In this document: positions 1,521 through 56,052 of the stretch, one piece after another
Position numbering within the stretch: position 1 is the stretch's first letter
Layout: each line of letters begins with the position of its first letter
NCBI GenBank assembly: GCA_964016885.1
Contig: OZ024751.1
Coordinates: 5,828,001 to 5,892,000, forward strand
DNA length: 64,000 nt
From: Eledone cirrhosa
Lineage: Eukaryota
Reading direction: 5' to 3'
Notes under the pieces: model-generated
Told to the model about the DNA's origin: nothing
The model's database searches: none
What the model saw: the letters and a program-made list of their open reading frames with translations, nothing else
Made by a program: the position numbers and the translations under genes

Positions 1521-1584
1521 CTATATCAGTAAAATGGAGAGATGCCTATATCAGTAAAAATGATACACATACATATATATCATT

Positions 1585-1652
<68 letters not shown>

Positions 1653-1654
<2 letters not shown>

Positions 1655-6445: not shown

Positions 6446-6729
6446 AAGTTTTGTAAAAATCGGTTTCGAACTCCAGAAGTTATGAAGTTTATTTGCATTG
6501 CACTGCAGTGCTTCAGTCGACTCTAAGGAAGTGGTACAGGGGGGTTATCTGCCGGGAGGCCCTATAATCAATATCTGGGAAAAATGAAAGTGCCCATCAG
6601 GATGACATAAGTAACATATGTCTTAATTACATTTAAGTAACTGCCGTACTAAGAGTGAGAAATGAAATTTCGTTTCATTCTATTCCATTTATCGTTTTCG
6701 GTGGGCCTGGCCGGCTAAATTCACGCGAT

Positions 6730-6737
6730 ATGCAAAT
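6730..6737 (+). promoter_or_regulatory. Octamer motif ATGCAAAT conserved in family R monomers
   Basis: Exact ATGCAAAT ~80 nt upstream of the HHR core; seen as ATTTGCAT in the minus-strand copies. Function is inferred only. Confidence 0.45.
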
Positions 6738-6811
6738 TAGGCTGCTCAGCCGTTAATATTTATAAGGAAAGTATATACTTTCAGACGTTCAACCATCTGG
6801 CAGGAAGGTAT

Positions 6812-6854
6812 ACGATGCTGACGATAGCTAATAAGCTTGAAACTAGTACATCGT
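6812..6854 (+). ncRNA. Minimal type I hammerhead ribozyme (family R)
   Basis: acgatg-CTGACGA-t agct aata agct t-GAAA-ctag-TA-catcgt. Stem I extends outward to gttcaac(6787)/gttgaac(6874). Predicted cleavage after GUA at 6848. Confidence 0.85.
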
Positions 6855-7132
6855 TCCTGTGTGAGTTGTTGAACAAACAGGTGACGTGGTTGCCTAAACA
6901 CTGTACGGCGTAATTCGGCCTGTTTGTTTGTTTACAAACAAACCAAGCATTATAATAAATGTTCGATAAACCGATACGTGCATATATATAGGTGTGATAG
7001 TATGTAAATATATACATCCTACTGTATGTCTGTATACATATATGTATGTACTTATACATACATACATACTTACATTTAAGTAAGTGCCGTACTAAGAGTG
7101 AGAAATGAAATTTCGTTTCATTCTATTCCATT

Positions 7133-7212
<80 letters not shown>

Positions 7213-7409
7213 GGAACAAGTAAGACCCCGACGGCTGAGCTCAAGCCGTTTCGACGGCTAATTCTGGACTGAATCCAGAATTAGCCGTCGAAACGGCTTG
7301 AGCTCAGCCGTCGGGGTCTTACTTGTTCCTATTACCCACTCTACTACCCTAAGTATTGAGTACTTTGGTGCGTTATGGTCCACCTGGTTCCTTACCACAT
7401 TTCCTTCGT

Positions 7410-7901: not shown

Positions 7902-8238
7902 ATTAATATGTATGTGATGAAACACAGATACCAACACATCTGTATATATACATATATACATATATACATTTATTATACTATTCTCTTGTCATATCTGTCG
8001 TTTGTATTCCACTCCGTGTTTTTTAATTTTTAATTTCAATTATTGTACAATTCTCTTGTAATCTCTGTCGTATCCATTCCACTCTGTAAATACGAAACTG
8101 TTGTTGACAGCATTAATATCCATGTATCTAGATGATTGTTCAGTTGAATAGGAGGTTAATTATATGTACAAACATTGCTAGTTCTTCGATGACTCCAAAC
8201 GAATAATAAATGAAAAATATTCTCATAACCAAAATATA

Positions 8239-8292
8239 TATCTTATTATACATATTTCAAAGGTACAAAGTACGTTTTCATCAGATAAAATA
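8239..8292 (-). ncRNA. Minimal type I hammerhead ribozyme
   Basis: Minus strand: tattttat-CTGATGA-aaacgtac ttt gtaccttt-GAAA-tatgta-TA-ataagata. Confidence 0.7.
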
Positions 8293-11295: not shown

Positions 11296-13464
11296 AGTGC
11301 ATCAACTACATATGTAAGTATGTTAATAAGGGTTCTGACGCTGCTTCGTTCTGTATACTCAACGAAAACAATAGAGACAAAGTAACGCAACTCCAAGTAG
11401 GGCGCTACATAAGTTGTAGCGAGGCTTTTGACGAATCTTCGGTTTTCCAATACATGATAGGCACCCTTCAATTGTAAAATTATATGTACACCTAGAACAC
11501 GGTCAACGGATGTACTATACCAACTAAAATGCAGCTGAATTGGCACAGACCCCAAGGGAGACAACTTTGACTAGATTTTTTAAACTGTGCGAATACGATG
11601 ACTTCGCAAATTATTGCTGTATCTTCAGGTGCCATCATACTACACATGGAATAAAATAACAGGGAGTCGCAGAAAGACTGGCCAAGCAGTTATTGGAGTT
11701 CCCGGGATCAAATTCACTAATTGCTTGGGGTGAGCGTATACGATTCCTCCAAATCAACCCGAGTGCTTCTATAATGCTACTGCATGAGGTCAAATGATCG
11801 ACCAGTTTTCAGGAGCTCAGAACTTACGGTAATCGTGTTTGGTCTACATAAAGAGATGCCTGTTTGGCTCGTGGAATGCTTGAAGATGACTCACGATAGG
11901 ATGCAACCTTGGCGGAGATCGCTTCCTCACACTTAGCTGGAAGCCTATGAGAGCTCTTTGCAAAGCTTCTTCTCTTATGTAACATTTGTGATCCCTACAC
12001 ATTATGGTTGAAGTTTCGGAACCAACTGTCTGAGGACTTCCTGCACCAGGATCAACTTCTACTTCCTGACATAGAAGTAGATTTCAGTGATGATGTATAC
12101 AATAAAGGGCTTATAGACATAGAGGACAGGATTCTCCGTATGGGTCGGAATGACTTGCCAGCATATGGTCTGCCACGAACCCACCACACTGATTCTAATA
12201 ACATTCCAACTCTCATCATCCAAGAAACATCTCATGATGTCGACATTCTAGCTAGATATGTGTTTGAAATGGAACCAAAACTACTTCCCGATCAGAAATT
12301 TGCATATCACCGACTATTTATTTCACCGATGGGGTGGTATATTCTTTCTTCATGCCCCTGGACTGGAAAAACCTTTGTTACTAAACTTCTTCTTGCCAAA
12401 GTTAGACAGAATGAAATTATCGCAATAGCCGTTGCATCATCCGGTATTGCAGCAACACTACTTCTTGGCGGCAGGACAGCACACTACCTTTAAGCTTCCG
12501 CTTAACTTGGTATCAGCTGAAACACCGCTCTGTGACATCACCAAGGATAGTCCAAGAGCAGAACTCTACGACGGTGCCAACTGATTGTGTGGGATGAATG
12601 CACCATGGTTCACAAAGGAGCTATTGAGGCCTTAGATAGAACACTGACAGACATCAGAGACCGTCAGGAGACCATGGGGGTGTAAATCTTTTGCTTTCAG
12701 GGGACTTTCGACAAACTTTGCCGCTAATTACAAAGGGCACCAGAGCGGATCAAGTTCGGGCCTGCTTGAAGTCTTCTCCATTGTGGAAACAGGTAACAAC
12801 ACTTCGTCTGACCACTAACATGCGTGTTCAACTGCATGGCGATACTGTGTCTGAAAAATTTGCTGAAGACTTTCTCATTCTGGCGACGGCAAAGTACCTT
12901 CATATGTGCATGGAGACATTGCACACGACAATATGTGGTGTCTGGTTAACACTGTCGAAGATCTCAAGGCAGCCGTTTTTCCCAACTTGGCAGATAATTA
13001 CCGCAATAATACATGGCTGTGTGAGAGGGCTATATTAGTTCCTACAAATGTCACTGTCACCTCCATTAATCGCCAAATGCTTGAAAGTCTTCCTGGAAAT
13101 GATAAGACTTTTAAGTCTATTGATACCAATGTTGATCCACATGATGCGGTCAATTATCCAATTGAATTCCTCAATTCATCGGATATTCCCGGTCTACTTC
13201 AACATGTTTTGTCTCTCAAGGAAAGATGTCCAGTTATATTTCTCAGGAATATAACCCCTCCCAAGCTTTGCAATGGTACACGCCTTGTTGTCAATAGGAT
13301 GTCACACACAGACTTTATCTGTGGTAAGACTTCACCTGGAGGAGCCATGTTTTTCACATGGACAATTCTACGTTGGATGTTCTCGAGGTGGCCGCCAGAA
13401 CAACCTATTTGCTTTTGCCCCAAACGGAAAAACAAAGAATATTGTATACCGTGAAGTTTTATAG
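11290..13464 (+). pseudogene. Helitron Rep (C-terminal part) and PIF1-like helicase, with frameshifts and stops
   Basis: YICKYVNKGSD (Rep YxxKY), GRYISCSEA, TGKTF, IAVASSGIAATLLLGGRTAH, WDECTM, GDFRQTLP, LTTNMR, LCNGTRL, FSHGQFYVGCSR, TKNIVYREVL. Confidence 0.92.
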
Positions 13465-14439
13465 GGTTTCTTGTTACACAGACTGCCTTAAATATATAGC
13501 GTCTACGAAACCTGTATTCAACATCGATGCAGTGCATTCTATTGATACCTAGGCCTCTAGGGACCAGTATGATTCGCAAATCAAAACGGCTCTGAAATCG
13601 ATGCTTTCGATTGTTAAGGACGCCCCTCCAGTGGCTAACAAGTCCGGCGTTTAATGCCTAGACACACACAACTTGGCGCATACATACAAAGATTTTTCCC
13701 GTCATTTCTTTCATTGTTTCAATATGCATTCCGACCTAGACAACACGCAACAACACCATTTCTGGTGCGTCGAATTAAACTTTCGTGATCATTCTCAATT
13801 GCATTAAAGATGCAATTTAAGCAGCATTTGTTTTGTTGATTTCAGCGATTCTTTTTGGTGAATATGGCTTTTGCTGCAGCTGTCCATTTCGCATGCTGTG
13901 GCTGTCTATAATCTTCCCGTCAAACTCACCATGGGTATGTTATGAGCTCTTCATAGTTTATACTTAAACATCTACGCTATTGTCAATATTTTTTATCACA
14001 GGTGCAAACCTCTTTGATGCTGCCTGCTCCCTCGACTTCGGATAACGCATTTTGTTCTTGTTTTTCATGTCCATCCAATTTCTTTGTTTCAAAATAACTG
14101 ATAGTTTGGTTACGCTGATGTATTTCTCTGAGACAAGTGTTGCAGTGTTTAGATTTTCGATCTTTGTTAATAGATTACCAGTGCAGTTTTTATCCCCAGC
14201 ATCCTCTTTTGTTTTAAGATTCGGGTTATGGTTATGTTTTCTTAACTTCATAAGGCATACTGTTGGTTGAGGGAATATTAATCAAAAGTACCACATGAAA
14301 GTCTACACTGTAGACTCTACAGTTTTTAAGCCAAGAAAGGAATTTAACATTGTAACTTTAACACAGCTACTGAGCAGCCCGCGCAACGCCGGGCTTTACT
14401 GCTAGTATGTTTATATTCACACTCACACATACACATTCA

Positions 14440-19670: not shown

Positions 19671-20035
19671 GGAAGACATGATATGAAGGTTAAGAAACAC
19701 TTGTGGATAGTGCAGTTTTAAATCAACATATGAAAAGTAGTTTTAGATTGATGTGTGATATTGGGGAAAAAAAAAATATTTTTTTTTAGGGGGAGGGGGT
19801 TGGAAAGGATGAAAAAAGAGGAGGAGAGTAAAAAGTGGAGAGGGAGGAGTATAATGAGGAAGGATGAGATAGGAGGAGAGATGGGTGATAGAGAGAGAGA
19901 GATAGCTTTTATAACTGAGAGAAATATATTGTTTTACATAGAGAGGTTGAAAAACCGTTGGAAGATAATGTATAAATTAAAAGAATTTGAAAATTAACGA
20001 AGAGAAAATAATGTAAAGTTAAGGTTTGTATATTG

Positions 20036-20385
20036 AAGGGTTTAATAATATGTGCGATGAAAAGAAAATATTAATATGTATTAAGAATAATATTTAAGGG
20101 TTTAATAATATGTGCGATGGAAAGAAAATGTTAATATGTATTAAGAATAATATTTAAGGGTTTAATAATATGTGCGATGAAAAGAAAATATTAATATGTA
20201 TTAAGAATAATATTTAAGGGTTTAATAATATGTGCGATGGAAAGAAAATGTTAATATGTATTAAGAATAATATTTAAGGGTTTAATAATATGTGCGATGG
20301 AAAGAAAATGTTAATATGTATTAAGAATAATATTTAAGGGTTTAATAATATGTGCGATGGAAAGAAAATGTTGATATGTATTATT
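20036..20385. repeat. 60-bp tandem repeat, ~5.8 copies
   Basis: Lines 20041-20341 are nearly identical at a 60-bp period. Confidence 0.95.
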
Positions 20386-24751: not shown

Positions 24752-25094
24752 ATATAAATATATATGTGTGTGTGTGTGTGTTAGTTAGGTGAGTAATAAC
24801 AGTTACAGGCTGCGTACCTTTCGAAGCAATCGATGCTTTTACGAGATCCATTTCGTTTCGATTGTATTCCTGAATTACGTCTGTAGTGTGCAGGGTGTTA
24901 ATAGATTATGTAGATATATGTTTGCGCATATAAGCTCGCATATCTGACGAGATATCGAAAAAGAGTCGGGCCCCATCACTTTGATTGGGCCGGAATTGAT
25001 CGCTATTTAAACAATTGTAATATGCAAATAAAGCTTGTACATCTACTACAACACCGACTTCGACTTTCTAAAATCTCTCTCTCTTTCTCTCTCC

Positions 25095-25945
<851 letters not shown>

Positions 25946-26359: not shown

Positions 26360-26956
26360 TCTGCATGTTCTTATATAGTAATTTTGCATCTTCTTATATT
26401 GTAACTCTGCATCTTCTTATATTGTAACTCTGCATCTTCTTATATTGTAACTCTGCATCTTCTTATATTGTAAATCTGCAGCTTCTTATATTGTAACTCT
26501 GCATCTTCTTATATTGTAACTCTGCATCTTCTTATATAGTAATTTTGCATCTTCTTATATTGTAACTCTGCATGTTCTTATATTGTAACTCTGCATCTTC
26601 TTATATTGTAACTCTGCAGCTTCTTATATTGTAACTCTGCATCTTCTTATATTGTAACTCTGCATCTTCTTATATTGTAACTCTGCATCTTCTTATATTG
26701 TAACTCTGCATGTTCTTATATTGTAACTCTGCATCTTCTTATATTGTAACTCTGCATGTTCTTATATTGTAACTCTGCATCTTCTTATATTGTAACTCTG
26801 CATCTTCTTATATTGTAACTCTGCATCTTCTTATATTGTAACTCTGCATCTTCTTATATTGTAACTCTGCAGCTTCTTATATCGTAACTCTGCATCTTCT
26901 TATATTGTAACTCTGCAGCTTCTTATATCGTAACTCTGCATCTTCTTATATTGTAA
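26360..26956. repeat. 23-bp minisatellite, ~26 copies
   Basis: Unit gtaactctgcatcttcttatatt; period 26401 to 26424. Confidence 0.95.
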
Positions 26957-32699: not shown

Positions 32700-32730
<31 letters not shown>

Positions 32731-32789
32731 CAAGGCTCTTATACCATCAACACTATAAACACAGAGCTGGCATATCTAAGAACTGACTA

Positions 32790-32845
32790 ACTGCCTGATG
32801 AGATCATAGCCATTCAATGGCTATCATCGAAATATATATAGCAGT
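32790..32845 (+). ncRNA. Hammerhead ribozyme in a solo pLTR-like fragment (32727-32890)
   Basis: actgc-CTGATGA-gatcatagccattcaatggctatcatc-GAAA-tatata-TA-gcagt. Confidence 0.85.
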
Positions 32846-32886
32846 AAATAAAGGACTATGAGTTCATGTAATTGACTTATGTTTCG

Positions 32887-32961
<75 letters not shown>

Positions 32962-33682: not shown

Positions 33683-36600
33683 ATAGAAATTAAATGTCAG
33701 ACAAAACAATACCAAATTCTTGAACAAATATATTTAATGGCTGGCAATAGTTTCGGAAACCATATCAGATTCTGCACATACAGATGATAATTATCGATTA
33801 TAAAATCGATAATAGTAAATGAAAATAAAAAGAAAAGTTTGATATGGTCTCCTTATCGGAGCCGAAAAGGAAAAACAAACAGAAATTCAGAAATACATGT
33901 CACTTAAAATAGGGAATACAATAAATGTAAAACTTGAAGAGTACCCATGTACATATTAAAGATGGAAGTAAGACAATAATACATCTTACATTCTAAGAAT
34001 TTAACCATTTAATATAAAGGAGAAAGTATGAAACAGGAAGTAGTTCAGTAAATATAACAATGGCATAATTATGAAGAAAGGGAGATAATTAATTAGAAAT
34101 TCATAATAAATAATTAATTTTTTTTTTTTAATATACCTAATGGTCGAATAAAAAGATGAATATATGTGTGGAAAAAAATATCATGTAAAATTGAACAAGA
34201 ACGTAAACATATGAGCAGTCATTAAAAATAACAATTAGAAGGGGTAATGTTTATCAAAATAATTTGAGAAAGGCCAAAAGATAGGTTTATATTACGAATT
34301 GAAGGGGAAAAGAATGCAATATAAAAGAACAATTATTCTGATATTTAAAAGTCAGGCTATGCATACCAAAGTCTATGACGTCAAATAATTAAGCACAAGT
34401 TCCTCTAGTGGAAGATAAACAATTAAGAAGAAAATGATAGATTAAATTAAAATAATTGTTTCTACTTTTGGCACAAGGCCAGTAATTATCCAGTACATTA
34501 CTGGTACTTTATTTTATCGACCCCGTAAGGATGAAAGGCAAAGTTAACCTTGGCCGGATTTGAACTCAGATAGTAAATGGGCGTAACTACGGTGGAAAAC
34601 ATGTCCAACCCTCTACCGATACTGCTAATACACCACCCTTATTAAATTAAAATAATGGTTTAAAAGAAGGTGTATATAAAGAATATAGTAAAGGGGTGTG
34701 TAAAAGGAGAAGAAAGGCCAAAATAGTAAGGGTTAACACTAAGAAAAAATACTAATATAGGAGGATACTATAGGCAGTGTATTATAAGTTATTATGAAAA
34801 TGAGTAAGTTAACTGGCGGATAAATAGGTGTAATAAGGATTTGCGCTGTGGCCGAAATGGATAGGGCAATTGGGATACTAATTTTAGCAGTAAAAATATA
34901 TAAAGGTAAATAAAACAATATAGAAAGAGATTAAAAGTAGAATGGTTAAAAAGGATGGGTTTATAAAGAACATGGTGAAAGAGTATTAAATTAGTTACAA
35001 AAGAGGGAGAAGGGCGGGGATTAAGAAAGTTAAAGCTAAAGAGGAAACCATAGAGGGAAATAATAGGAAATCCATTAACATCCATTAAATAATTGTACAT
35101 GTGAGTGGGTTATATTAAAAGTGAAAAGATAGGATAGTTAAAGGATCACCCATTAACTAAGAAAATGAAAATAGAGACTAAAGAATCTGGGTGATAAATT
35201 AAGATGATATAATAGGTGGGAGTAAAGAAAGAGTGATATTAATATAACATGAGTAAAAATAAAATATAAAAAAAATACGATATTAATTAATTAGGAAGAA
35301 AATTTGAACTAGTTAAAATGTGAAGGTAAGATAAGTGGAGTGAGAGGTTAAAAGGAATAGTAAAAAAAGGAAAAAATGGAAATAGCCAAAATTCCAACTA
35401 ATGGAATCTAAGTGGCATCAAAAACCCTGTTAGCGAACGAGTATGCCAAACGATGTTGGAAGTTAATTACAATCTCGTTGCGATCATTTATTGGGCTGCG
35501 CTTAGGCATAGTTATGAAATAAGCTTCCGATAAACAGAGATCACTATGACCTTTACAACCTTTTTAAGGAGAGGATTTAGCTAAGATATACCAGACTAAA
35601 GAGTATTCACTATCAGTGAGTTTTCGTGTATTTATATGTCTGGCTAAAAAAAAAAAATAAAAACTTTAAAATACTATTTCAATTCTTAAATTCTTAAAAG
35701 AATGTCTTTGAGAATTAAAACGAATCTTGAAAGGAGTAGCAGTAGCTCAAAATTATATTTTAGTATCATAATGGGTTTTAACAGTGCATCTGTATTTTAC
35801 ATTATTATTAAGACATTGACCATTCAGAGGGCAGTTATTAGGATTTCTACAAGTACAGTTACGTTTAGGGGCGGGAGAGATTGTAGGTAAGGGGATAGAA
35901 CTAATAGGCGTATCATTTGAAGGTGAGGCGATAGGCGATAGGCGAGTTAAAAGAATAACTATTCATGTTAGAATTATTCGTATATGAAGGTTTAAGAGGT
36001 TGAGGTAAATTAACAGAAAGGGAGGCACTATGTTTTCTTTTTAGTTTCTCATGGTAACTAAAAGCAATATAATCAGCCAGGTTAGGGATAGTAGGGAAAA
36101 TAATCTTAGCATTATTGTTGTTAAATAATTTATAGTACTTATGGTTAGGAGGGAAATTGTTGCGTAAGATGGAGAAAAAGCTTTTAGGGGTGTTAAAGGA
36201 GAACGGAGGATTAAACCAGGACAGATTACGAGATCTATTTCGGCGCGGACTACTAGCAGTATTAGAAGGGTTTATAGGTATATTTAGAGTATTTTTAAAG
36301 TCATTATGCGTAGCAGTGCATGGATTCTTAGTATTACAGGAAGGTGTTTGCTTAAGGTGTCTATTAGAACTAATCCTGAACTCATTGCCAGGAGTAAGTA
36401 GCGAACCATTATAAGCAGACCGGTTTTTTCTATTAGTGTTTTTAAATCTATTATTACTAGAAAGACAGCTCTGTTCAATTACATTATTATTACGTAATCT
36501 ATGGTTAGACTGAACAGCAGGTAGGTAATACATTTTACCCTTGTAGCCTGATTTAGAAAGACCGTCTATCTCGTTAAATATGTTCTCATTTGTAGAGAAC

Positions 36601-37207
36601 CTAGAGATTCTATGTGAAATAGACATTACAATAGATTTAAGAATAGAGTGGGGTGGGGGTGGGGGTGGGGGGATACAACTATTAATATAGGTTAAGATCT
36701 TACCGGGTTTATGATAAGGACGATAGGGTTCCTGTATTAAGGTCTAAAGTATCATCAAAGAACTTAATTACCTTATAGTTAGACTCGATTGTTCTAGAAA
36801 GACCAATGCTTTAAAAAAGATTATGGAAATACTTTTTGAGAATCTCGATTCTACGTACGTTACATTTATCTACAGTAAATAGAGCATCGTCTCTATATAA
36901 GCCGACTTGCAGAGTGGATAATTCCCCTGTCGCTTGTGTACGATGTAAATTCCCAGAAAGTCAGTAACATGTGCAGAGTCACTTGACCCCATAGTGATGT
37001 GAAAGTTATCTGGTCTATTAGCCCTAGTCCAATAACAACCATTGAACTCTATTATAGTGTGTCTAGAAGTCAATAAAATGTATATTTCTTTTTTTTAGAT
37101 AAATCAGTATTAGTTCTAGCTACGATTAGGGCTTTATTAAGTAAAATAGGCTATATAGAGGCATATTAGCTATCGATGTCAACTAATATCTTATCACTCC
37201 TCCTCGA
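33683..37207 (-). mobile_element. Decayed Penelope-like element (RT, zinc finger, GIY-YIG relic, long 3' region); SINE inserted at 34455-34640
   Basis: FHITMGSSDSAHVTDFLG, SISHRISRFSTNENIF, WFNPPFS, NFPPNHKYYKLFN, CTCRNPNNCPLNGQCL, DLCLSE; relic HHR at 33739-33863. Confidence 0.85.
34455..34640 (-). mobile_element. tRNA-derived SINE (Nin/Deu-like core)
   Basis: Closely similar to 33225-33415. Confidence 0.85.
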
Positions 37208-37984: not shown

Positions 37985-38715
37985 TCCTAAAAAATATATT
38001 AAAAAATATAGTCCAAAAAAATTCTCTGTACTTACTATATGTGCCGTTTCCGCAGTTTCAGATCCCAAACCAATAGATAATCCAATCGGATTTTCAGTGA
38101 GAAAGTGATCCTCGTCAGAAGGCTTTTCTCTCTCGGAGAATATAAAATTCCTGAGTTCAAATTACAAACTCGCGCCATACAAAACTGCGTCAGAATGAGA
38201 ATAAATGAATGATGAAATAATTTTGTCTAGTACCGTGTGCAAAGACAGAAAGCTGGGTGGACAGGTCAATGCCGTGCTGCTAAAAATAGCAGCATTTCAA
38301 ACGACCAATGGTTTCTCTACCGTTGGGTACTAGACAAAATTGTTTCATCATTCATTTATTCTCATTATGAGGCAGTTTTGTATGGCGCCAGTTTGTAATT
38401 TGAAATCAGGAATTTTATATTTTCCGAGAGAGAAAAGCCTTGTGACGAGGATATCTTTCTCAATGGAAATCCGCTTGGATTATCTATTTGTTTGGGATCT
38501 AAAACCGCGGTAATGGCACATATAGTAAGTACAGTGAATTTTTTAGAATCTATAATCTTTAAATATTTTCTAGGATATTTTCTGTGTTTAAACTCCCTGA
38601 TTTTATATGTTCTGGCTTGTTAATTTATTAACTTGCCATTGAACCACATTAGCATACGGTCGGACTATACTTATTTCCCTATGTGTATTAATTTCATGTG
38701 GGAACATATATCTTT
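37985..38715 (+). mobile_element. Fold-back element with ~245-bp inverted arms and a tail
   Basis: 37985-38232 is a diverged reverse complement of 38328-38575; flanked by (TA)n. Confidence 0.75.
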
Positions 38716-39589: not shown

Positions 39590-40198
<609 letters not shown>

Positions 40199-41001
40199 GT
40201 ACATATATATATGTATACAGACGTACAGTAGTATGTATATATATATACATACATGCACACATATATATATATGTACGTATGGATTCACCGAACATTTATT
40301 ATAATGCTCGGTGTGTTTGTAAACAAACATCCCGTATTAAGCCGTAGTGTCTAGCAACCATCGTTGCTCGTTTGTTCAACACTGACAAAGGAACGCTGTA
40401 CTAGTTTCAAGCTTATTAGCTATCGTCAGCAACGTATACCTTCCTGCCAGATTGTTGAACGTATATATATACCTTATGCATATTAACGGCTGAGTAGCCC
40501 AATTTGCATATAGAGTGGGTTAATCGGCCGGGTGCACCGAAAACTATAAACGGAAAAAATGAAACAAAATTTTATTTCCCATTCTTAGTACGGCTGTTAC
40601 TTAAATATAATTATGTACACGTACATACATATATGTATACAGACGTACATTAGTATGTATATATATATACAAATATGCACACATATATATATGTACGTAT
40701 AGATTCACCGAACATTTATTATAATGCTCGCTGTGTTTGTAAACAAACATCCCGTATTAAGCCGTAGTGTCTAGCAACCATCGTTGCTCGTTTATTCAAT
40801 ACTGACAAAGGAACGCTGTGCTAGTTTCAAGCTTATTAGTTATCGTCAGCAACGTATACCTTCCTGTCAGATTGTTGAACGTATATACTTACCTTATGCA
40901 TATTAACGGCTGAGTAGCCCAATTTGCATATCGAGTGGGCTACTCAGCCGTTAATATGCATTAGGTAAGTATATACATTCAACAATCTGGCAGGAAGGTA
41001 T

Positions 41002-41044
41002 ACGTTGCTGACGATAGCTAATAAGCTTGAAACTAGTACAGCGT
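41002..41044 (+). ncRNA. Hammerhead ribozyme (family R)
   Basis: acgttg-CTGACGA-tagctaataagctt-GAAA-ctag-TA-cagcgt. Confidence 0.85.
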
Positions 41045-41419
41045 TCCTTTGTCAGTGTTGAATAAACGAGCAACGATGGTTGCTAGACACTACGGCTTAA
41101 TACGGGATGTCTGTTTACAAACACACCGATCATTATAATAAATGTTCGGTGAATCCATACGTACATATATATATGTGTTCATGTATATATATATATATGC
41201 ATACTACTGTACGTCTGTATACATATATGTATGTACGTGTACAAACTTATATTTAAGTAACAGCCGTACTAAGAGTGGGAAATGAAATTTCGTTTCATTT
41301 TTTCCGTTTATCGATTTCGGGGCACCCGGCCGATTAACCCGCTCGATATGCAAATTGGGCTACTCAGCCGTTAATATGCATCAGGTAAGTATATCTGTTC
41401 AACACTGGCAGGAAGGTAT

Positions 41420-41462
41420 ACGTTGCTGACGATAGCTAATAAGCTTGAAACTAGTACAGCGT
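41420..41462 (+). ncRNA. Hammerhead ribozyme (family R)
   Basis: Core identical to 41002-41044, 418 nt downstream. Confidence 0.85.
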
Positions 41463-41731
41463 TCCTTTGTCAGTGTTGAACAAACGAGCAACGATGGTTG
41501 CTAGACACTACGGCTTAATACGGGATGTTTGTTTACAAACACACCGAGCATTATAATAAATGTTCGGTGAATCCATACGTACATATATATATGTGTGTGT
41601 GCATGTATGTATATATATATACATACTACTGTACGTCTGTATACATGTATGTATGTATGCACGTGTACATACATATATTTAAGTAACAGCCGTACTAAGA
41701 GTGGGAAATGAAATTTCGTTTCATTTTTTCC

Positions 41732-41778
<47 letters not shown>

Positions 41779-41811: not shown

Positions 41812-41876
<65 letters not shown>

Positions 41877-41880
<4 letters not shown>

Positions 41881-42395
41881 TAATAAAAACAATGAATAAA
41901 AACAAAGAACAAGTTCCTTATATTAAAATATTCATCATTTTACGATCGTTTCTAGGATATATATGTGTGTGTTGGTATGTATATCGTATAGATCTATGTA
42001 AAAATATTACAAACTATTAGAGGAAATATACATACCTTCACATATATATGCTGTCTTCAGAAATAATGAACTATTTCATTATTTCTGAAGACAGCATATA
42101 TATGTGAAGGTATGTATATTTCCTCTAATACTTTGTAATATTTTTACATAGATCTATATGATATACATACCAACACACACATATATATCCTAGAAACGAT
42201 CGTAAAATGATGAATTTTTTAATATAAGGAACTTGTTCTTTGTTTTTATTCATTTTTTTTATTAATTTATCTTGACTCTTTTCCTGTGATTTTCATCGAA
42301 AATTTTTGAATACATCTTCTCTTTTCATGATATTTGGATTACATTGAGTTCTTCATACGGATTGGACACTACCGTGTATTTTGGTAGATTTATAG
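41877..42395 (+). mobile_element. Near-perfect fold-back (~195-bp arms, 4-nt loop) plus tail, with long-stem-II HHRs at 41931-42070 (-) and 42075-42214 (+)
   Basis: ttcattattt-CTGAAGA-cagcatatatatgtg...cacatatatatccta-GAAA-cgatcg-TA-aaatgatgaa. Confidence 0.85.
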
Positions 42396-42418: not shown

Positions 42419-42754
42419 TTGGTAAACGGAATAGAAAATGCTGACAAATTGTTCACAGTTGAAAAATGGTTTAATTTTTATGTTAAAAGAGTGACTCCAG
42501 CGCTACTTGGTGTTTGCAAAAATTCTTGTGGTCAAAACAATTTTGATTGGTCGGTAGAGGTCATGTGAATAAAAAATTGATTTTGCGCCAAGACTGAGAA
42601 ATGACACTTTCACAACAAATATGTGTGTGTGTGTGTGTGTGTGTGTGTAGTAGTAGTAAGGTGTTCGATATTGTGATAATGGTTAGCAGGGATGTGTGTC
42701 AAATAATTATTAAGATAAGTGTGTGTGAGTGTGTGTGTGTGTCTTATACGCGAA

Positions 42755-42787
<33 letters not shown>

Positions 42788-42913
42788 CACACACACACAC
42801 ACTCTTCCCGTATAAGACAAAAGCTGAAAAATATCTTTTGACATGCTAAAATACCCCCCACTGCTTACAGACACATTTCTACTGACCATCCCTGCTACCA
42901 CGAATTACTCTGC

Positions 42914-42956
<43 letters not shown>

Positions 42957-43488
42957 TTGTTGTGAAAGAGTCATTTCTCAGTTTTGGCGCAAAATCAGTT
43001 TTTTATTCACATGACCTCTACCGACCAATCAAAATTGTTTTGACCACAAGAATTTTTGCAAACACCAAGTAGCGCTGGAGTCACTTTTTTAACATAAAAA
43101 CAGTCTTGGCGCAAAATCAATGTTTTACATTCCCATGACCTCTACCGACCAATCAAAATTGTTTTGACCACAAGAATTTTTGCAACACCAAAGTAGCTCT
43201 GGAGCCACTTTGTTAACATAAAAACAGGTAGAATTCCCCAAACTAATCAGATCAGAGCAAACAACACGGACACTCTATCACAAAATTTTTTTTTGAAAAG
43301 CATTTCGAAATGCGCAACCAGTAAAAACTTAAAAACTTAAAACCACAACTGAATACTAACCCATACAATTGCTAATACTCTTTTATTCCTAATTAAACCA
43401 TTTTTCAACTGTGAACAATTTTTCAGCATTTTCTATTCCGTTTACCAATATATAATAACTTGTGTGTTACACCTCTATTCTTTTAACT
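42419..43488 (+). mobile_element. Complex fold-back element with internal duplications
   Basis: 42419-42473 mirrors 43392-43449; 42476-42700 mirrors 42880-43100; ~125-bp direct repeat at ~42985/43107; ~40-nt tail. Confidence 0.75.
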
Positions 43489-47931: not shown

Positions 47932-50545
47932 ATGGAAAATCTGGCAACCTTGGCGGCATTGAAGGATATCCCTTTAGCAGACAAACAGGTGTACACCAAT
48001 GATCTCATTAAGAGTACAGACTCACTCATTCGAAGGATGCGATGGAGGGCGTTCCACTTTGAAAGAGGAACTCCCAAACTTACCAACACCTAAAACATGG
48101 AGTACCTTTTTAGATCAAGGAGGAACCCTCTCCACAACAGGTTACTGGAGGAGTTCGAGAATGAGATGATTAACATTATCTCCAACCTCAAATCCTCTGG
48201 AGTACCTGAGACACCTGGGAAACGGGATTGCCAAACTTAAGGTGTCGACCGGAATACTTGTCCATGCTGATAAAACTAGCAACGTCTACAGCACGGACAT
48301 AAATATGTACAATAAGCTAATTCTCAGGGAACCGAGGAAGAGCTACAAAAACCACCTGGAGTTACTCTGGAGGAGATCAACGCCAATGCTTACAGGATAG
48401 TATCCGGATTCGGTATAGATGATAGCACGGCCCCATACCAACTGTGGGAGTCGAGGATTACCATTAAGGATCACAAACCCAACTTTCAGTCCGACCTCCC
48501 GATAAGACTAATAGCCCCTTCGATGGCGGACCTGGGGATTGTCAGTAAAAGCATACTCGATGGAATTTTGCCGACGCTTAGGAAAAAAACTAAATTACAG
48601 CAATGGTCATGCACAGGTGAGGTAATAGAGTGGTTTACACTATCAGAAAAATAGGACCAGCTTTATCCAACTGGATATTGCTGGTTACTACTCAAACTCG
48701 CCATAGTACATACTAAGGCCCTTATTTTCGTGATGTCTGAAACAGACCTATCCCGAGAGGAGGTGGACATCATCCACGCCACCCGTAAGACCTTGATCCG
48801 TGTCGGTGGGGACCTCTTGATCAGGAGTGATTGGCCAAATAACTTTGACATCACGATGGGCTCTAGCGACTCTGCGCAAGTGATTGACCTGGTTGGGCTC
48901 TTCCTGCTGAAGCAGATAAAAGAAATCCCCTGCCTCGGCGGCGGACTACACCGTGACGATGCCCTCTTCACAGTCTGTTACCACAGCACCACTATGGTGA
49001 AGAGAAGGAAGAGGCGAATTAGACATTTTTTTAGGGATCATGGGTTCAGTATGGAATTAGACCCTAATAGAAAGGTAGTTAACTTCCTAGACACAACCCT
49101 AAATCTAAACACTGAGCTATACTACCCTTATCACAAGCCTAACGAGAATCTGGTATATGTTAACACTAAGTCAAACCACCCCAGATATATCATTAAGGGC
49201 GCCCTCAGGAGTGTCTCGGACAGAATCTCCAACTTGTCCGCAAATAGTTAGATCTTCGATAGCAATGTTGATTATTATAATACAGCTCTAGGTAAGGCGG
49301 CCCATTACGAAACCATATCTTATAACCCGAGGCGCCATGCTAGAGATGGCCCATCGGGCCCCTCGATCTGCGGTATCCAGAAAGGGTGAAACCCAAACAG
49401 TACAGCCAGGGTTAAGGCCACTAAACGCCCTGAACGCGGCACCAATACGGTAGCGAATAAGACGCACACGCCTGGGCATGTGAGAAAACCCTGTACGTTA
49501 GTCGGACTTAGGGTTGATACTAACCACCCCGGACCCAGCGCCGCCAACCACATGAAGCAGACCAGGATGGATGGAGGAACATCTTAATGTAGAACTTCCG
49601 GACACATCTCCCCACCGGTACGGGCAGAACAGTTAGTAAAACCCATAGCGCTCATAGAGACAGCAATAATGCGGAAAGCAGTAGCACCCCAACAACTCCC
49701 CAACGGCCAACGGCGTTCTCCACCCACCCTCGTAAGGATAGACGAAGGTACACTCCACCCTACGTAGTACAATCCACCCTAATCAGCGGGCCTCAAGACC
49801 AGCATTGCCCGGGCATTCTTTAGGGCACTGGATAAGTGCTTCCCGAGGAACCACAGATACCGCAAAATATTCAATAGGCACACGGTGAAGATCTCGTACT
49901 CAACCACGCACAGTGTATCCCAGCCATAGCTAGTATCAATAGGAACAGACTTAGGAACTATGGGGCGCCAGAGGCTGACCCTATAGGCACCAGCAGAGCC
50001 ATGATGGGGTAAATGTTGGACGTGGGACTGAGGCGAGGACCACCAACCAACCACGGGTGCCTGTACTAGGCTCAGGGATCAACCACCCCAAGCTACACAA
50101 TGGGAACCCCACAGTAGACATTGAGGGGTTGACCAATTCATGCAACTGCAGAACCGCCACGTTATACCCCCTTGGTAATGAATGCTTACTGAGGAACCTT
50201 ATACAGATGCAAGGTTACAACCCCTAACTCAGAACACCTTTACACAGGAGCCACATCAACGAGCTTCAAGGACAGATGGTATAACCACTGCCATTCTTTC
50301 AATAGGATAGACAAGAGGAAAAGTACGCCCGTTTCCGAACTGATCTGGAAGCTCAAGCTAGAAAAGACCACGTATGCTTTGGTCTGGTCCAAGATTAGGG
50401 AGGTACCACCTAACGGAGGGCGATCTGGCATCTGCAAACTCTGTCTAATACTCAGGGGTGGGAGTAACTTAATCAACCTTAGGACCGATTTCATTGGTAC
50501 CTGTAGACACCTTAGAGCGGGAACTTTCCTCAAACTATATGGATA
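47932..50545 (+). pseudogene. PLE polyprotein (RT and GIY-YIG endonuclease)
   Basis: KDIP..LIRRMRWRA, ADKT, ITIKDHKPNF, FIQLDI, FDITMGSSDSAQV, GLHRDD, VNFLDTTLNL, YVNTKSNHP, FPRNHRYRKIFNRHTVKISYS, CNCR, YTGATSTSFKDRWYNH, CKLCL, CRH. Confidence 0.9.
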
Positions 50546-51614
50546 GCAACCCCGTCACACTGGGCCCCCGTGACACCAAACCCACCCCCTATACCTAGCT
50601 TTCACCATCTCCTCTCGTCTAGAATAGCAATTTTAACACCACACTTACCTAGCAGCAAGAACCGTGCCTCACACCGCTGTGGTCCACCCTTCTCTTTAAC
50701 TTCCATAACTCAAACCCAAGTTAGCGGAAACTAGATAATTAGCAAAACAACATACGTCGGCGGAGTCCTACCCTGTGCGTAACCAGGCAACCCACGTTTC
50801 CGACCACCCAACTCCGGCTTATGATCTGATTACCCGAAGGATATGCTACCTCAAGTCTGACCACTTTCGCAAGAGTCAGTGCTAACTACTACAAGTAAAT
50901 AGGACCCACCTATTACTTCTCTCCCCACTCCATGAGGGGAGCTTTGAGTCTGTGTCCATGTGTGCGCATCCGAAAATGTACGTATATGTAATTGTGTGTA
51001 TGCGTGCATGTATGTGTGCCGATGTGTGAGATTGTGTGGATGTGGATTTTTAAATGCACTTAGACTTGTTCTTATACGTGTGTACACGTTTGCGGGTGTG
51101 TACTAAATGTCTAAAATATGAATTGTAATTCTTTACACGCCTACCATTTAACACACAGACTTTATTTCTTTCAACACACACGCTTTATTTTAGCATCTCC
51201 CACTATAAGACCTAATGGTAGAGAGAAGCACTGAACTCTGTCACTCTATATATATAAATTCTTCTTGACAACACTACAGGGGATTAGAGTTTACAAGCAA
51301 ACCGGCCTACTCACGCCACTACCACTACGACCAGAAAAGTCGGTCAACCGGACTAGAACATGCAGTTAAAAGCAATATTAACAGGCTCGTCTGTTTCTGA
51401 AGAATTTCAGGAGATTTTCGGCTGGGGGAGGTATGATACCTGACCAATGAGTTGGGGACATATCATTTGGACGCTGAATTTCGTTCATTCTTAAGCATAT
51501 GCTTCAATTCCTTAGAGGACTAACAACACACCCAGGAGCTGGACATATCAACGAATTAACCTGGTAAAATTCCTTACAACATCATGTTTTCCCTTTTTTC
51601 TGTTTAAATCCTTA

Positions 51615-51671
51615 CTGCCTGATGAGGTCATAGCTGTTGAATAATGGCTATCACTGAAATATATATAGCAG
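51615..51671 (+). ncRNA. Hammerhead ribozyme in the PLE 3' pLTR
   Basis: ctgc-CTGATGA-ggtcatagctgttgaataatggctatcact-GAAA-tatata-TA-gcag; homolog of 32790. Confidence 0.82.
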
Positions 51672-51726
51672 CGAATGTGAATAAACAAACCCAATTTTAC
51701 CCCGTTGACTTACACTTCTTATTTTT

Positions 51727-51775
<49 letters not shown>

Positions 51776-52641: not shown

Positions 52642-52681
52642 AATATATGAACGTATATATATATATATATATATGTATAAA

Positions 52682-53662
52682 GTGAAAGAGTGAAGAATAA
52701 CATAGTCAACAGTACAAAAAGGGTTTTATTTACAGTATTAACAATTGTTTCATTGATTAAGTTGTCTAAACATTGCTAATCCCTTGAAGTTGTGTCACTC
52801 AATTTTAAATACAATGTATGCTTAATCAAATCATCGGAAAAACTGGTTAAGATTATACACGCCGATTGTAATATACTACGACTTTGTAATATGGAGTTGC
52901 TCCATATTTTAAAAAATGACATAATGCTGCTTAACAACAAAATTGATCGGTCAATTTTCTGTAAGCATAAAGCAGCTACTAAATTCGCTAATTTCACACC
53001 AACTTGTTTCGACCCAACAAATTTCAGGTTTATACCATCTGCATCTTTACATTTTAATCACCACCACCACAACTATTTTCAACAATCATATTATGTTCAC
53101 TTTTCTTCACGCACATATACATTTTTTTATTTATTTGTTATCAACTTCATTCTAACTTATTTATTATTGATTTATTATTTTTTCTTTTTCTTTTTCTGTA
53201 TCATTTTTTCTTTTTTCTCTTTTGTTTTTTCTTCTTTCTTTTTCTCCCTCTCTTTTTCTTATTTTCTCATTCTTTCTTTATTACTGATGTTGTGATTTGA
53301 ATTTTCAAAGGCCGTGTATAATGTTAATCAGTTCTTCCGATGATTTAATTAAGCATACATTGTATTTAAATTTGAGTGACACAACTTCAAGTAATTAGCA
53401 ATTTTTAGACAACTTAACCGATGAAACAATTGTTAATAATGTAAATGAAACCCTTTTTGTATTGTTGACCATGTTATTCTTCACTCTTTCACTATTATTA
53501 CTCCAAGATTAACCTGCATAGGAATTCCCGAGAACGCGTAAACTCTCTACCTGAGGAAACCTCTTGTTGAGTAAAAAAACGCCGTACGCTAAAACTATCC
53601 ACAATACTACAGAGTATACACAACCTCTATCTCGATTACCTATAACGATAATTTGTTAACCC
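52682..53662 (+). mobile_element. Fold-back element family C (copy 2)
   Basis: Arms 52682-52870/53310-53492 plus the same tail as 39180-39345. Confidence 0.8.
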
Positions 53663-54355: not shown

Positions 54356-54419
54356 GTATAAGTACATACATATATGTATACAGACGTACAGTAGTATGTA
54401 TATATATACATACATGCAC

Positions 54420-54469
<50 letters not shown>

Positions 54470-55964
54470 GCATCGGTTTACCGAACATTTATTATAATGC
54501 TCGGTTTGTTTGTAAACAAACAGCCCGAATTATTAGCCGAACAGTGAGCAGCCTAATTTGCATATCGAGTGAGTTAGTCGGCCGGGCGTACTGAAAACGA
54601 TAAATGGAAAAAATGAAATTTCATTTCTCACTCTTTCTACGACTGACACTTAAATATAAGTATGTATACGTACATACATATATATATACAGACGTACAGG
54701 AGTATGTATATACATACATACATGCACACATATATATATATATGTGCTTATGGGTTTACCAAACATTTATTATAATGTTAGGTTTGTTTGTAAACAAACA
54801 GCCCGAAGTATTAGCCGTACAGTTTTCGGCAACAATCGTTGCCCTTTTGTTCAACACTGACAAAGGAACGATGAACTAGTTTCTAGCTAATTAGCTGTCA
54901 TCAGCATCGTATACCTTCGTGTCAGTCGATTGAACGTTTGAAAGTATATACTTTCCTTATTTATATTAACGGCTGAGCAGCCTAATTTGCATATCGAGTG
55001 AGTTAGTCGGCCGGGCGTACTTAAAACGATAAATGGAAAAAATGAAATTTCATTTCTCACTCTTTCTACGGCTGATACTTAAATATAAGTATGTATACGT
55101 ACATACATATATGTATACAGACGTACAGTAGTATGTATATACGTACATACATGCACACATATATATATATATATATGTACATATGGGTTTACCTAACATT
55201 TATTATAATGCTCGGTTTGTTTGTAAACAAACAGCCCGAAGTATTAGCCGTACAGTTTTCGGCAACAATCGTTGCCCTTTTGTTCAACACTGACAAAGGA
55301 ACGATGAACTAGTTTCTAGCTAATTAGCTGTCATCAGCACCGTATACATTCCTGTCAGTCGATTGAACGCTTGAAGGTATATACTTTCCTTATGAATATT
55401 AACGGCTGAGCAGCCTAATTTGCATATCGAGTGAGTTAGTCGGCTGGGCGTACCGAAAACGATAAATGGAAAATGAAATTTCATTTCTCACTCTTTGTAC
55501 GGCTGATACTTAAATATAAGTATGTATACGTACATACGTGCATATGTATACAGACGTACAGTAGTATGTATATACATACATACACACACACACACACATA
55601 TATATATGTACGTATGCGTTTACCGAACATTTATTACAATGCTCGGTTTGTTTGTAAACAAACAGCCCGATTTATTAGCCGTACAGTGTTCGTCAACCAT
55701 CGTTGGCCATTTTTTCAACACAGACAAGGGAACGATGAACTAGTTTCTAGCTTATTAGCTGTCATCAGCACCGTTTACCTTCGTGTAAGTCCATTGAACG
55801 TTTGAAAGTATATACTTTTCTTATGTATATTAACGACTGAGAAGCCTAATTTGCATATCAAGTGAGTTAGTCGGCCGGGCGTACCGAAAACATTAAATAG
55901 AAAAAATGATATTTCATTTCTCACTCTTTGTACGGCTGATACTTATATATAAGTATGTATACGT

Positions 55965-55975
<11 letters not shown>
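54356..55975 (-). mobile_element. Family R (retrozyme-like) locus 3: ~4 head-to-tail monomers
   Basis: Period 433/431 bp. HHRs at 54868-54910, 55301-55343 and 55732-55774 (acg[a/g]tg-CTGATGA-cagctaat[t/a]agcta-GAAA-ctag-TT-catcgt). The first monomer lacks the HHR block. Confidence 0.9.

Positions 55976-56052
<77 letters not shown>

What the first reader, a model, noticed from the sequence alone, without database searches (positions are those of the whole stretch)
54356..55975. A ~430-bp non-coding tandem repeat family with one hammerhead ribozyme per monomer: candidate cephalopod retrozyme (self-cleaving, circRNA-producing system)
Seen: the same monomer occurs at three loci (6629-7134, 40191-41737, 54356-55975) and carries 8 HHR motifs at 418-433-nt spacing. 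Each has CUGA(U/C)GA and GAAA, a 4-bp stem II (agct/agct), a palindromic CUAG stem III and a long interrupted stem I (gttcaa..ctg[g/a]ca..aagg-TAT bulge-acg.tg / ca.cgt-cctt-tgtcag-gttgaac). Stem I changes preserve pairing: acgAtg/caTcgt versus acgTtg/caGcgt, and ctgGca versus ctgAca against tgtcag. The monomer has other hairpins (caccgagcatt/aatgttcggtg; tacggct/agccgta) and no ORF. Known: tandem 170-450-nt HHR repeats in animals (non-LTR retrozymes, newt satellite 2) are transcribed, self-cleave to monomers and can circularise; palindromic stem III is typical of dimer-cleaving minimal HHRs. Inference: this is such a family, yielding ~420-440-nt RNAs. I do not know whether it has been described. 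Caveat: the first stem II pair is non-canonical (U-U or C-A), and locus 3 has a GUU triplet.
Basis: partly seen in the sequence, partly recalled or inferred. Interest (0 to 1): 0.92.

Follow-up and report, generated by a model that had tools for sequence, protein, structure and literature searches.

The report
Hammerhead retrozyme with Penelope insertion marks
A 420-430-base non-coding repeat that carries a predicted self-cutting RNA motif in every unit has spread to thousands of places in this animal genome, and its insertion ends bear the marks of Penelope-like jumping genes, which points to the enzyme long suspected of moving such repeats.

Summary
Observation confirmed: eight type I hammerhead cores at 418-433-nt spacing in three window loci, seven intact. 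G000 holds 12,200 exact matches to the 30-nt core and 40,365 to the wider clade's core. Stems I and II show compensatory changes between families only 62% alike. This is a new member of the animal non-LTR retrozymes, a known class; host taxon, cleavage, expression and circles are untested.

Head-to-head pairs carry one end of each kind (26 mixed, 1 alike, 13 unclassed, of 40). This is the known one-sided 'tail' of Penelope-like elements (PLEs), and a coding PLE in G000 shows it too (3 of 3). Arms read through the ribozyme cut site, so the template was a circle or an uncut multimer, not the cut monomer. The helper PLE was not found. The scan noted PLE-type ends before, on a ribozyme-free repeat in another genome.

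The parts
54356..55975 (-). Locus 3: single arm of 431-433-nt units (family F4/F7, about 84-87% like the locus 2 family); 5'-truncated next to (TA)n at about 55975; 3' end at the tail-less (N) site at 54356
55738..55768 (-). Hammerhead core, GUU triplet, C-A first pair of stem II; predicted cut after 55738
55307..55337 (-). Hammerhead core, GUU triplet; predicted cut after 55307
54874..54904 (-). Hammerhead core, GUU triplet; predicted cut after 54874
54539..54545 (-). Junction of an internal deletion (unit position about 328 joined to about 51-55) that removed the fourth ribozyme of locus 3
55976..56049 (.). (TA)n run at the 5' side of locus 3
40180..40950 (-). Locus 2, left arm (family F1, 420-nt unit): 5'-truncated, ends at the tail-less N site (unit position about 214-217), then (TA)n
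40936..41737 (+). Locus 2, right arm: 5'-truncated, ends at the tailed T site (unit position 273), then (TA)n; joined head to head to the left arm over a short shared stretch at 40936-40950
40399..40429 (-). Hammerhead core, GUA triplet, U-U first pair of stem II
40819..40849 (-). Damaged hammerhead core (GCA triplet, stem II mismatch)
40976..41062 (+). Full type I hammerhead: bulged stem I, core 41008-41038, predicted cut after 41038
41394..41480 (+). Full type I hammerhead: core 41426-41456, predicted cut after 41456
41682..41737 (+). 56-nt 'tail' between the two 3' end sites; holds a hairpin that is also predicted in families F2-F4; candidate binding and priming signal for the helper reverse transcriptase (inferred)
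41348..41355 (+). Octamer ATGCAAAT inside the unit, kept in all five family sequences; candidate internal promoter element (inferred)
40063..40179 (.). (TA)n run beyond the N end of locus 2
41738..41773 (.). (TA)n run beyond the T end of locus 2
6627..7135 (+). Locus 1: single 5'-truncated arm of an older subfamily (79-84% like locus 2), ends at the T site, then (TA)n/(CA)n
6818..6848 (+). Hammerhead core, GUA triplet

Best explanation
A non-autonomous, non-coding retroelement of the animal non-LTR retrozyme kind that is copied into the genome by the RT/GIY-YIG protein of a Penelope-like element (PLE). SHOWN in sequence: one type I hammerhead per 420-500-nt unit; thousands of dispersed, randomly 5'-truncated arms; two fixed 3' ends (N at about 214-217 and T at 273 nt after the cut site) followed by (TA)n; head-to-head arm pairs with one N and one T end; arms that run through the cut site, often for more than one unit. 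INFERRED: tandem loci are transcribed (perhaps from an internal octamer-containing promoter); the ribozymes cut mainly as double hammerheads through the palindromic stem III; unit RNAs are ligated to circles. A PLE protein binds the tail region, cuts both strands of a (TA)n site and primes one cDNA at T and the other at N. Both cDNAs run back along a template without a 5' end (a circle, or an uncut multimer), stop at random and are joined at their truncated ends. A few loci later grew into long arrays by unequal crossover.
For: Eight cores in the window against 0 in 100 shuffles. 12,200 and 40,365 genome matches against controls of 0 and 7. 6 of 16 hammerhead pairs change on both sides across 14 hand-picked copies, 94.2% of cells paired, covariation score 0.348 against 0.123 (0 of 500 shuffles). 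In two long arrays the catalytic core differs from the consensus at 12 of 653 positions, the non-ribozyme, non-microsatellite parts at 358 of 9185 (Fisher p=0.005). In 78 position-picked loci 108 of 128 arm ends fall in two windows that make up 11% of the unit, 39 at exactly 273 and 26 at exactly 217; (TA)n follows 89 of these 108 but 6 of 20 other ends; of 40 head-to-head pairs 26 are N+T, 1 N+N, 0 T+T, 13 have an unclassed end (p=4e-7 for 26 to 1). Picked by the T end instead, 16 of 30 loci have a partner arm: 14 N, 2 other, 0 T (8 N and 1 other among the 18 loci new to the sample). Sister family F3, 62% alike, has its own two ends about 70 nt apart, N+T in 2 of 2 complete pairs. A coding RT/GIY-YIG PLE of G000 has two ends about 68 nt apart, tail on one arm only in 3 of 3 two-armed loci. 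18 of 30 T arms and 13 of 14 partner arms cross the cut site; 1 of 29 stops within 6 nt of it. 18 variants recur within one locus only, against a permutation mean of 0.9 and maximum of 7. Published PLE signature: inverted 5'-truncated copy, tail on one end, (TA)n bias (PMC8557442, PMC3846280, passages); two RT start sites bracket the tail and both strands are cut and extended in vitro (PMC11167929, parts 1-2).
Against: No helper was found: none of 64 PLE-picked loci has this ribozyme or tail as its own terminal repeat, and the three Neptune-type 3' ends seen are unlike the tail. No cleavage, RNA or circle data. The count of pairs with two-sided change is not above the shuffles (6 against 5.2; 199 of 500), and most changes stem from one family split. 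The ribozyme has two weak features at once (one-to-two-pair stem III, unpaired first pair of stem II); in the predicted minimum-energy folds CUG mispairs with stem III, and the locus 3 unit tested does not form stem I. Only 1 of 9 Xenopus retrozyme dimers cleaved in vitro (10.64898/2026.07.22.740005), and in the anole PLE uncut RNA was the main template (PMC11167929). Some insertions are mosaics of subfamilies (L091, L051), which fits a mixed multimer or template jumps better than one circle. The N end lies in an AT-rich stretch that resembles the target, so its exact base is uncertain. Samples come from the first 53 Mb of one chromosome plus best hits.
Confidence: 0.8

Rival explanations
1. 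Same PLE-driven insertion, but the template is an uncut multimeric transcript; the hammerhead is a passenger or acts at another step, and no circle is needed.
For: Read-through of the cut site fits a multimer as well as a circle. Mosaic insertions exist. Ribozyme mutants did not affect insertion by the anole PLE in vitro (PMC11167929). The ribozyme is predicted to be weak.
Against: Units within one dispersed insertion differ by 2.7-2.9%, units within the two long arrays sampled by 5.6%, so those arrays are not the source. In L005 all 7 units of both arms share one locus-private variant. The core is conserved across families, so cleavage appears to be selected.
Confidence: 0.3
2. The units are solo pseudo-LTRs: 5'-truncated debris of an autonomous PLE whose terminal repeat is this sequence, later duplicated locally.
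For: The ends look exactly like PLE ends. Half of Xenopus retrozyme families match PLE terminal repeats (24 of 57; 10.64898/2026.07.22.740005). Local duplication occurs (L048).
Against: 58 of 128 arms are longer than one unit and continue in unit sequence. No PLE-picked locus had this unit as its terminal repeat; where PLE pieces lay beside a copy and were read (L021, L028, L121, L157), a (TA)n run separated them. Longest ATG frame in tripled units is 50-93 codons.
Confidence: 0.08
3. A satellite or rolling-circle DNA element (Helitron-like, extrachromosomal circles) spread at the DNA level, with a fossil ribozyme.
For: Long arrays of at least 20 units exist on C11 and C28. A Helitron-like helicase relic lies in the window.
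Against: Fixed 3' ends with random 5' truncation, one-sided tails and head-to-head arms are reverse-transcription marks shared with a coding PLE in the same genome. Compensatory changes keep an RNA fold.
Confidence: 0.04
4. The inverted arms are fold-back artefacts of sequencing or assembly.
For: The window has many near-perfect palindromes.
Against: Arms of one insertion differ by 2.7%, have unequal, uncorrelated lengths (Spearman -0.10, 26 pairs) and different 5' points (6 of 26 within 30 nt, 3.8 expected), and obey the N+T rule.
Confidence: 0.02

Closest known systems
Animal non-LTR retrozymes (coral, mussel, axolotl; Cervera and de la Pena 2020, PMC7229834; vertebrate survey 10.64898/2026.07.22.740005)
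   Same: Tandem non-coding units with one type I hammerhead each, low GC (35-38%), thousands of copies, dimers to long arrays, PLEs in the same genome.
   Different: Units are at or above the usual upper size (420-500 nt). RNA and circles are not shown here. The parts of these papers that I read argue for PLE mobilisation from co-occurrence and terminal-repeat homology; they do not describe fixed 3' ends, head-to-head arms or a one-sided tail, and the 2020 review (PMC7761336, passage) says no motif points to the helper.
Axolotl HHR_Amex1 and HHR_Amex2, newt satellite 2
   Same: Amex1: helix III of one pair capped by a palindromic tetraloop. Amex2: U-U at the base of helix II. Both cut poorly as monomers (6% and 22% in an hour) and well as dimers (PMC7229834, part 3).
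   Different: Family F1 here has both weak features in one motif; sister family F3 has a G-C first pair. No sequence comparison with the amphibian repeats was made.
Endonuclease-bearing Penelope-like elements (Neptune, Hydra, Naiad, Penelope/Poseidon)
   Same: 5'-truncated partial tandems, inverted head-to-head copy, tail on one end, (TA)n bias in Neptune, Hydra and Naiad (PMC8557442, PMC3846280); two RT start sites that bracket the tail (PMC11167929).
   Different: No RT/EN ORF; tail is 56-70 nt rather than 30-40; ribozyme is full-size rather than minimal; no matching autonomous partner found.
Non-autonomous Chlamys elements such as MRC1 of Chlamydomonas
   Same: Non-coding PLE dependants that form multicopy head-to-tail insertions (PMC8557442, passage).
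   Different: Those share 3' sequence with a known autonomous family and mostly lack hammerheads.

Membership tests
Animal non-LTR retrozyme | One canonical type I hammerhead per repeat unit | tested here: met
   no Rfam model matches, so by descriptor and covariation
Animal non-LTR retrozyme | Short tandem units (about 150-450 bp), dimers to large multimers | tested here: met
   F1 412-453 nt (83 units); F4/F7 431-435; F3 466 and F2 about 490 lie slightly above; arrays of at least 20 units
Animal non-LTR retrozyme | GC below 45% and no protein coding | tested here: met
   GC 35-38%; longest ATG frame 50-93 codons in tripled units
Animal non-LTR retrozyme | No LTR, primer binding site or polypurine tract | not tested
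   Arm anatomy shows no LTR pair; PBS and PPT were not searched
Animal non-LTR retrozyme | Self-cleavage as monomer or dimer | not testable with these tools
   Needs in vitro transcription; predicted dimer-dependent (ACUAGU duplex about -6.8 kcal/mol)
Animal non-LTR retrozyme | Expressed as linear and circular unit RNAs | not testable with these tools
Animal non-LTR retrozyme | Autonomous PLEs present in the same genome | tested here: met
   775-codon RT plus GIY-YIG frames in many near-identical copies; Hydra-like pieces
PLE-type insertion (works like) | 5' truncation with fixed 3' ends | tested here: met
   108 of 128 ends at two sites; 5' points spread over the whole unit
PLE-type insertion (works like) | Inverted 5'-truncated copy joined head to head | tested here: met
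   40 pairs in 37 of 78 loci, no tail-to-tail pair; 16 of 30
PLE-type insertion (works like) | Tail on one end only | tested here: met
   26 N+T, 1 N+N, 0 T+T, 13 unclassed of 40; 14 N, 0 T, 2 other of 16
PLE-type insertion (works like) | (TA)n target bias | tested here: met
   89 of 108 N or T ends against 6 of 20 other ends; whether the run pre-exists or grows at insertion is open
PLE-type insertion (works like) | Target-site duplication | tested here: inconclusive
   Hidden by (TA)n; 1 of 33 insertions had an empty-site homologue among held loci
Derivative of a known PLE family | Sequence homology of the unit to the terminal repeat of an autonomous PLE | tested here: inconclusive
   None in 64 PLE-picked loci, a small sample of 10,000-34,000 candidate places
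Autonomous PLE | ORF with RT and GIY-YIG endonuclease | tested here: not met
Minimal PLE-type hammerhead | Lacks helix III or the loop I-loop II contact region | tested here: not met
   Stem I of over 20 pairs with a UA(U/A) bulge after 6 pairs and a conserved stem II loop; that this bulge and loop make the classical tertiary contact is recalled, not tested

The most novel reading that the evidence does not exclude
Twin-primed rolling-circle retrotransposition: a dimeric PLE protein sits on the tail of one circular retrozyme RNA, one subunit at each start site, and extends both cut strands of a (TA)n target around the same circle. That would explain the near-strict N+T pairing, arms longer than one unit, read-through of the cut site and locus-private variants in both arms. 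It would be the first genomic footprint of the proposed circle-to-genome step of animal retrozymes, and a minimal 420-nt RNA substrate for PLE priming.
Probability: 0.35. Interest if true: 0.8.

Novelty: new member of a known kind. Interest (0 to 1): 0.55.

Why it matters
Who copies animal retrozymes back into DNA, and from which RNA form, is stated as open in the papers that defined the class: PLEs are named as likely helpers on indirect grounds. This family gives direct end-structure evidence for PLE machinery acting in trans on a non-coding ribozyme RNA, locates the two probable priming sites to a few bases, and gives a rule (one tailed, one tail-less arm) that any model of PLE integration must explain. 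With 12,000-40,000 ribozyme copies it is also a large unannotated source of self-cleaving RNA and of inverted repeats in this genome. The class itself is known, so the family alone is of moderate interest.

Tried and rejected
Rfam: no hammerhead model matched. Sequencing runs: no RNA holder listed among 6 runs; no read data were obtained, so expression stays open. Dimeric-circle reading of the A-B-A-B-A pattern at L048: rejected, because unit 1 lacks two variants of units 3 and 5, which fits a recent local duplication of an 842-bp block; L035 may be the same. The 31% against 5.8% sharing of derived variants is partly subfamily structure, so it was redone with locus-private variants: 18 in all, 12 without L048 and L035; 6 in both arms, of which the window case is an overlap artefact, leaving 5 against a null mean of 0.4 and maximum of 5. 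The one N+N pair (L071) comes from overlapping alignments but was kept in the count. Linear cut monomer as template: rejected. Snap-back self-priming as the general source of the second arm: not favoured, as 5' points coincide in 6 of 26 pairs (3.8 expected). Helper search: 30 loci of one young Neptune-type family, 30 GIY-YIG loci and 4 Hydra-like loci gave no match to unit, tail or ACUAGU ribozyme; 23 of 85 held loci with PLE protein hits also hold a family ribozyme, and only L021, L028, L121, L157 (read) and L185 (by coordinates) were inspected. Clade names Neptune and Hydra rest on domain order and motifs; no tree was built. Idea that (TA)n is made by the RT at insertion: not decidable. Host taxon: ESM Atlas and the homologue search gave no cephalopod name; the few named hits are bivalve-symbiont assemblies. 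Coats et al. 1994 on the newt promoter is not held; that it involves an octamer is recalled.

Full report
OBSERVATION. The three loci and eight hammerhead cores are in the window as described. A structural type I descriptor gave 8 matches against 0 in 100 block shuffles. Seven cores are intact; 40819-40849 has GCA. Spacings are 418, 420, 431 and 433 nt. Rfam has no matching model. Locus 2 is two arms pointing outward, not one array.

EXTENT. The window lies at G000:C11:5828001-5892000 in a 3.0-Gb assembly. The 30-nt core pattern has 12,200 exact matches (control 0); the looser pattern for any core with ACUAGU stem III has 40,365 (control 7). Most listed places are dispersed; long arrays exist on C11, C28 and C1. 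Clustering 57 distinct full units gave F1 (420 nt, locus 2), F4/F7 (431-435 nt, locus 3 and older copies), F2 (about 490) and F3 (466, 62% like F1), plus two chimeric units that were set aside. GC is 35-38%; tripled units have no ATG frame over 93 codons. The host taxon was not established.

RIBOZYME. Type I: six pairs, a UA(U/A) bulge, then a long outer stem I; stem II of 4-5 pairs with an AA(U/C)A loop; stem III ACUAGU. In 14 hand-picked distinct copies 94.2% of cells pair and 6 of 16 pairs change on both sides; the covariation score beats all 500 shuffles, the number of covarying pairs does not (199 of 500), and most changes come from the F3 split. Over five family sequences CUGANGA is invariant at 6 of 7 and GAAA-to-cut at 9 of 10 positions, against 28 of 87 in the hairpin region; this is partly by construction, because units were cut at the core, though F3 was first met through its tail. 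In two long arrays the core varies half as much as the rest (12 of 653 against 358 of 9185, p=0.005; units over 5% diverged left out, CpG not controlled). Circular folds are 5-11 standard deviations below 30 shuffles, inflated by an AT-rich stem. As a single motif the minimum-energy fold mispairs the core; the palindrome can form a 6-pair duplex between two motifs. Axolotl ribozymes with either weak feature cut poorly alone and well as dimers (PMC7229834, part 3). Dimer-dependent cleavage is therefore inferred, not shown.

ENDS. I took 78 loci by position from the first 100 places listed (first 38 Mb of C1) and aligned each arm to a multimer of the F1 consensus. Of 128 arms 55 end at unit position 194-222 (N; 26 at 217), 53 at 257-275 (T; 39 at 273) and 20 elsewhere. 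(TA)n follows 45 of 55, 44 of 53 and 6 of 20. 5' ends are spread over the unit. 37 loci hold 40 head-to-head pairs and none a tail-to-tail pair: 26 N+T, 1 N+N, 0 T+T, 13 with an unclassed end. In 15 best-hit and window loci: 7 N+T, 1 T+T, 2 unclassed. Exact junction patterns occur 2,412 (T) and 3,635 (N) times, controls 0 (patterns differ in strictness). In 30 loci picked by the T end, 12 of them already sampled, 16 have a partner: 14 N, 2 other, 0 T. F3 has its own ends at 228-233 and 301-303, N+T in 2 of 2 complete pairs. Window locus 2 is N+T, locus 1 a single T arm, locus 3 a single N arm.

MEANING OF THE ENDS. PLE insertions are 5'-truncated partial tandems, often with an inverted copy, and a 30-40-bp tail often at one end only; several clades prefer (TA)n (PMC8557442 and PMC3846280, passages). 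For the anole Poseidon protein the tail is the stretch between two internal RT start sites, both DNA strands are cut and extended, and a dimer is predicted (PMC11167929, parts 1-2 of 4). G000 has a young PLE with a 775-codon RT plus C-terminal GIY-YIG frame and a Cys linker (Neptune-type by motif). It shows two ends about 68 nt apart, one per arm in 3 of 3 loci where both ends were in view. The retrozyme thus carries the full PLE signature without coding. The helper itself was not found in 64 PLE-picked loci.

TEMPLATE. 18 of 30 T arms and 13 of 14 partner arms cross the cut site and 1 of 29 stops at it, so the cut linear monomer is not the template. Units of one insertion differ by 2.9% within an arm and 2.7% between arms, against 4.3% between loci and 5.6% within long arrays. 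18 variants recur in one locus only (null mean 0.9, maximum 7); 12 remain without two locally duplicated loci; 5 span both arms after one artefact is dropped (null mean 0.4, maximum 5). This fits one circle copied from both primers, but also a uniform multimer or later conversion between arms. Against a single circle, L091 and L051 are subfamily mosaics, and the period-two pattern at L048 is a local duplication. Arm lengths are uncorrelated.

PROMOTER. An octamer box is the best-kept part outside the ribozyme core (15 of 21 invariant). Newt satellite 2 uses an snRNA-type promoter (passage in PMC2220036); the octamer's part in it is recalled. No test was made.

WHAT IS KNOWN. Non-LTR retrozymes are a described class, with circles shown in coral, mussel and axolotl (PMC7229834: passages, part 3 of 6, discussion). 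Their authors call PLEs strong candidates for the helper, and a review says the repeats show no motif that would reveal it (PMC7761336, passages). A 2026 preprint adds co-occurrence and terminal-repeat homology in Xenopus, covers no mollusc, and found cleavage in 1 of 9 dimers (parts 1-3 of 5). Seven library searches listed no paper on a cephalopod retrozyme or on retrozyme insertion ends; a 2026 Octopus vulgaris repeat annotation has no occurrence of 'ribozyme' or 'retrozyme' in its main text (PMC13282606). Supplements, Repbase, Dfam and most subscription papers were not seen and may hold this family. The scan's own notes hold no look-alike of the sequence but one ribozyme-free tandem unit with PLE-type ends in another genome.

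VERDICT. A real, very abundant new member of the animal non-LTR retrozymes, most likely moved by PLE machinery through twin priming at two fixed sites (confidence 0.8; circle as template about even). Interest 0.55.

Noticed in passing
window 32717-32890 and 51560-51730: Two further hammerhead-like motifs (cores at 32795 and 51619) with palindromic AUAUAU stem III and long stem II, next to (TA)n; each hits 11 held sequences, the window included.
   Followed up: partly
window 25092-25561, 25660-25860 and 8180-8290: A third hammerhead-bearing short family: cores at 25331 and 25759 (428 bp apart, G at the cut position) and 8255-8284 on the minus strand, in inverted-repeat units; 29-35 held sequences hit.
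   Followed up: partly
window 7212-7330, 39736-40077, 41875-42270, also 38016-38544, 42475-43100, 52681-53493: Short near-perfect palindromes bounded by (TA)n; the three tested are repeat families (15-43 held sequences hit). Probably short head-to-head PLE-type insertions nested in each other's (TA)n; two of them flank locus 2 directly.
   Followed up: partly
L121-L130 (for example G000:C2:151608610-151616110); window 1019-1654: Young Neptune-type PLE with an upstream 409-codon frame without Pfam match before the RT/EN frame, and a hammerhead variant with U3-A8 in place of C3-G8 and palindromic ACCGGU stem III in its terminal repeat (read).
   Followed up: partly
window 35913-36743 (-) and 48655-49251 (+): Fragments of a Hydra-like PLE protein (clade by recalled motifs); 34,088 candidate places in G000.
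   Followed up: partly
L126:6118-6738 (-); L171:25 (+): Other tandem hammerhead families: three cores at 310-nt spacing in L126; one canonical-looking core in L171.
   Followed up: no
G000:C1:5738326-5752444: Array of 31 F3-type ribozymes at about 466-nt spacing on the minus strand with one inverted copy at its 5' side: a long array that keeps the head-to-head form.
   Followed up: no
L135: An F3 insertion lies in a (CAT)n run rather than (TA)n, as does one end of L209.
   Followed up: no
window 3024-6322 (+) and 11951-13657: Broken LINE (endonuclease plus RT) and a broken PIF1/Helitron-like helicase, named from the look of the translations.
   Followed up: no
window 10136-11294, 20030-20383, 26360-26956: Minisatellites with units of 46, 60 and 23 bp at 94-97% identity.
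   Followed up: no
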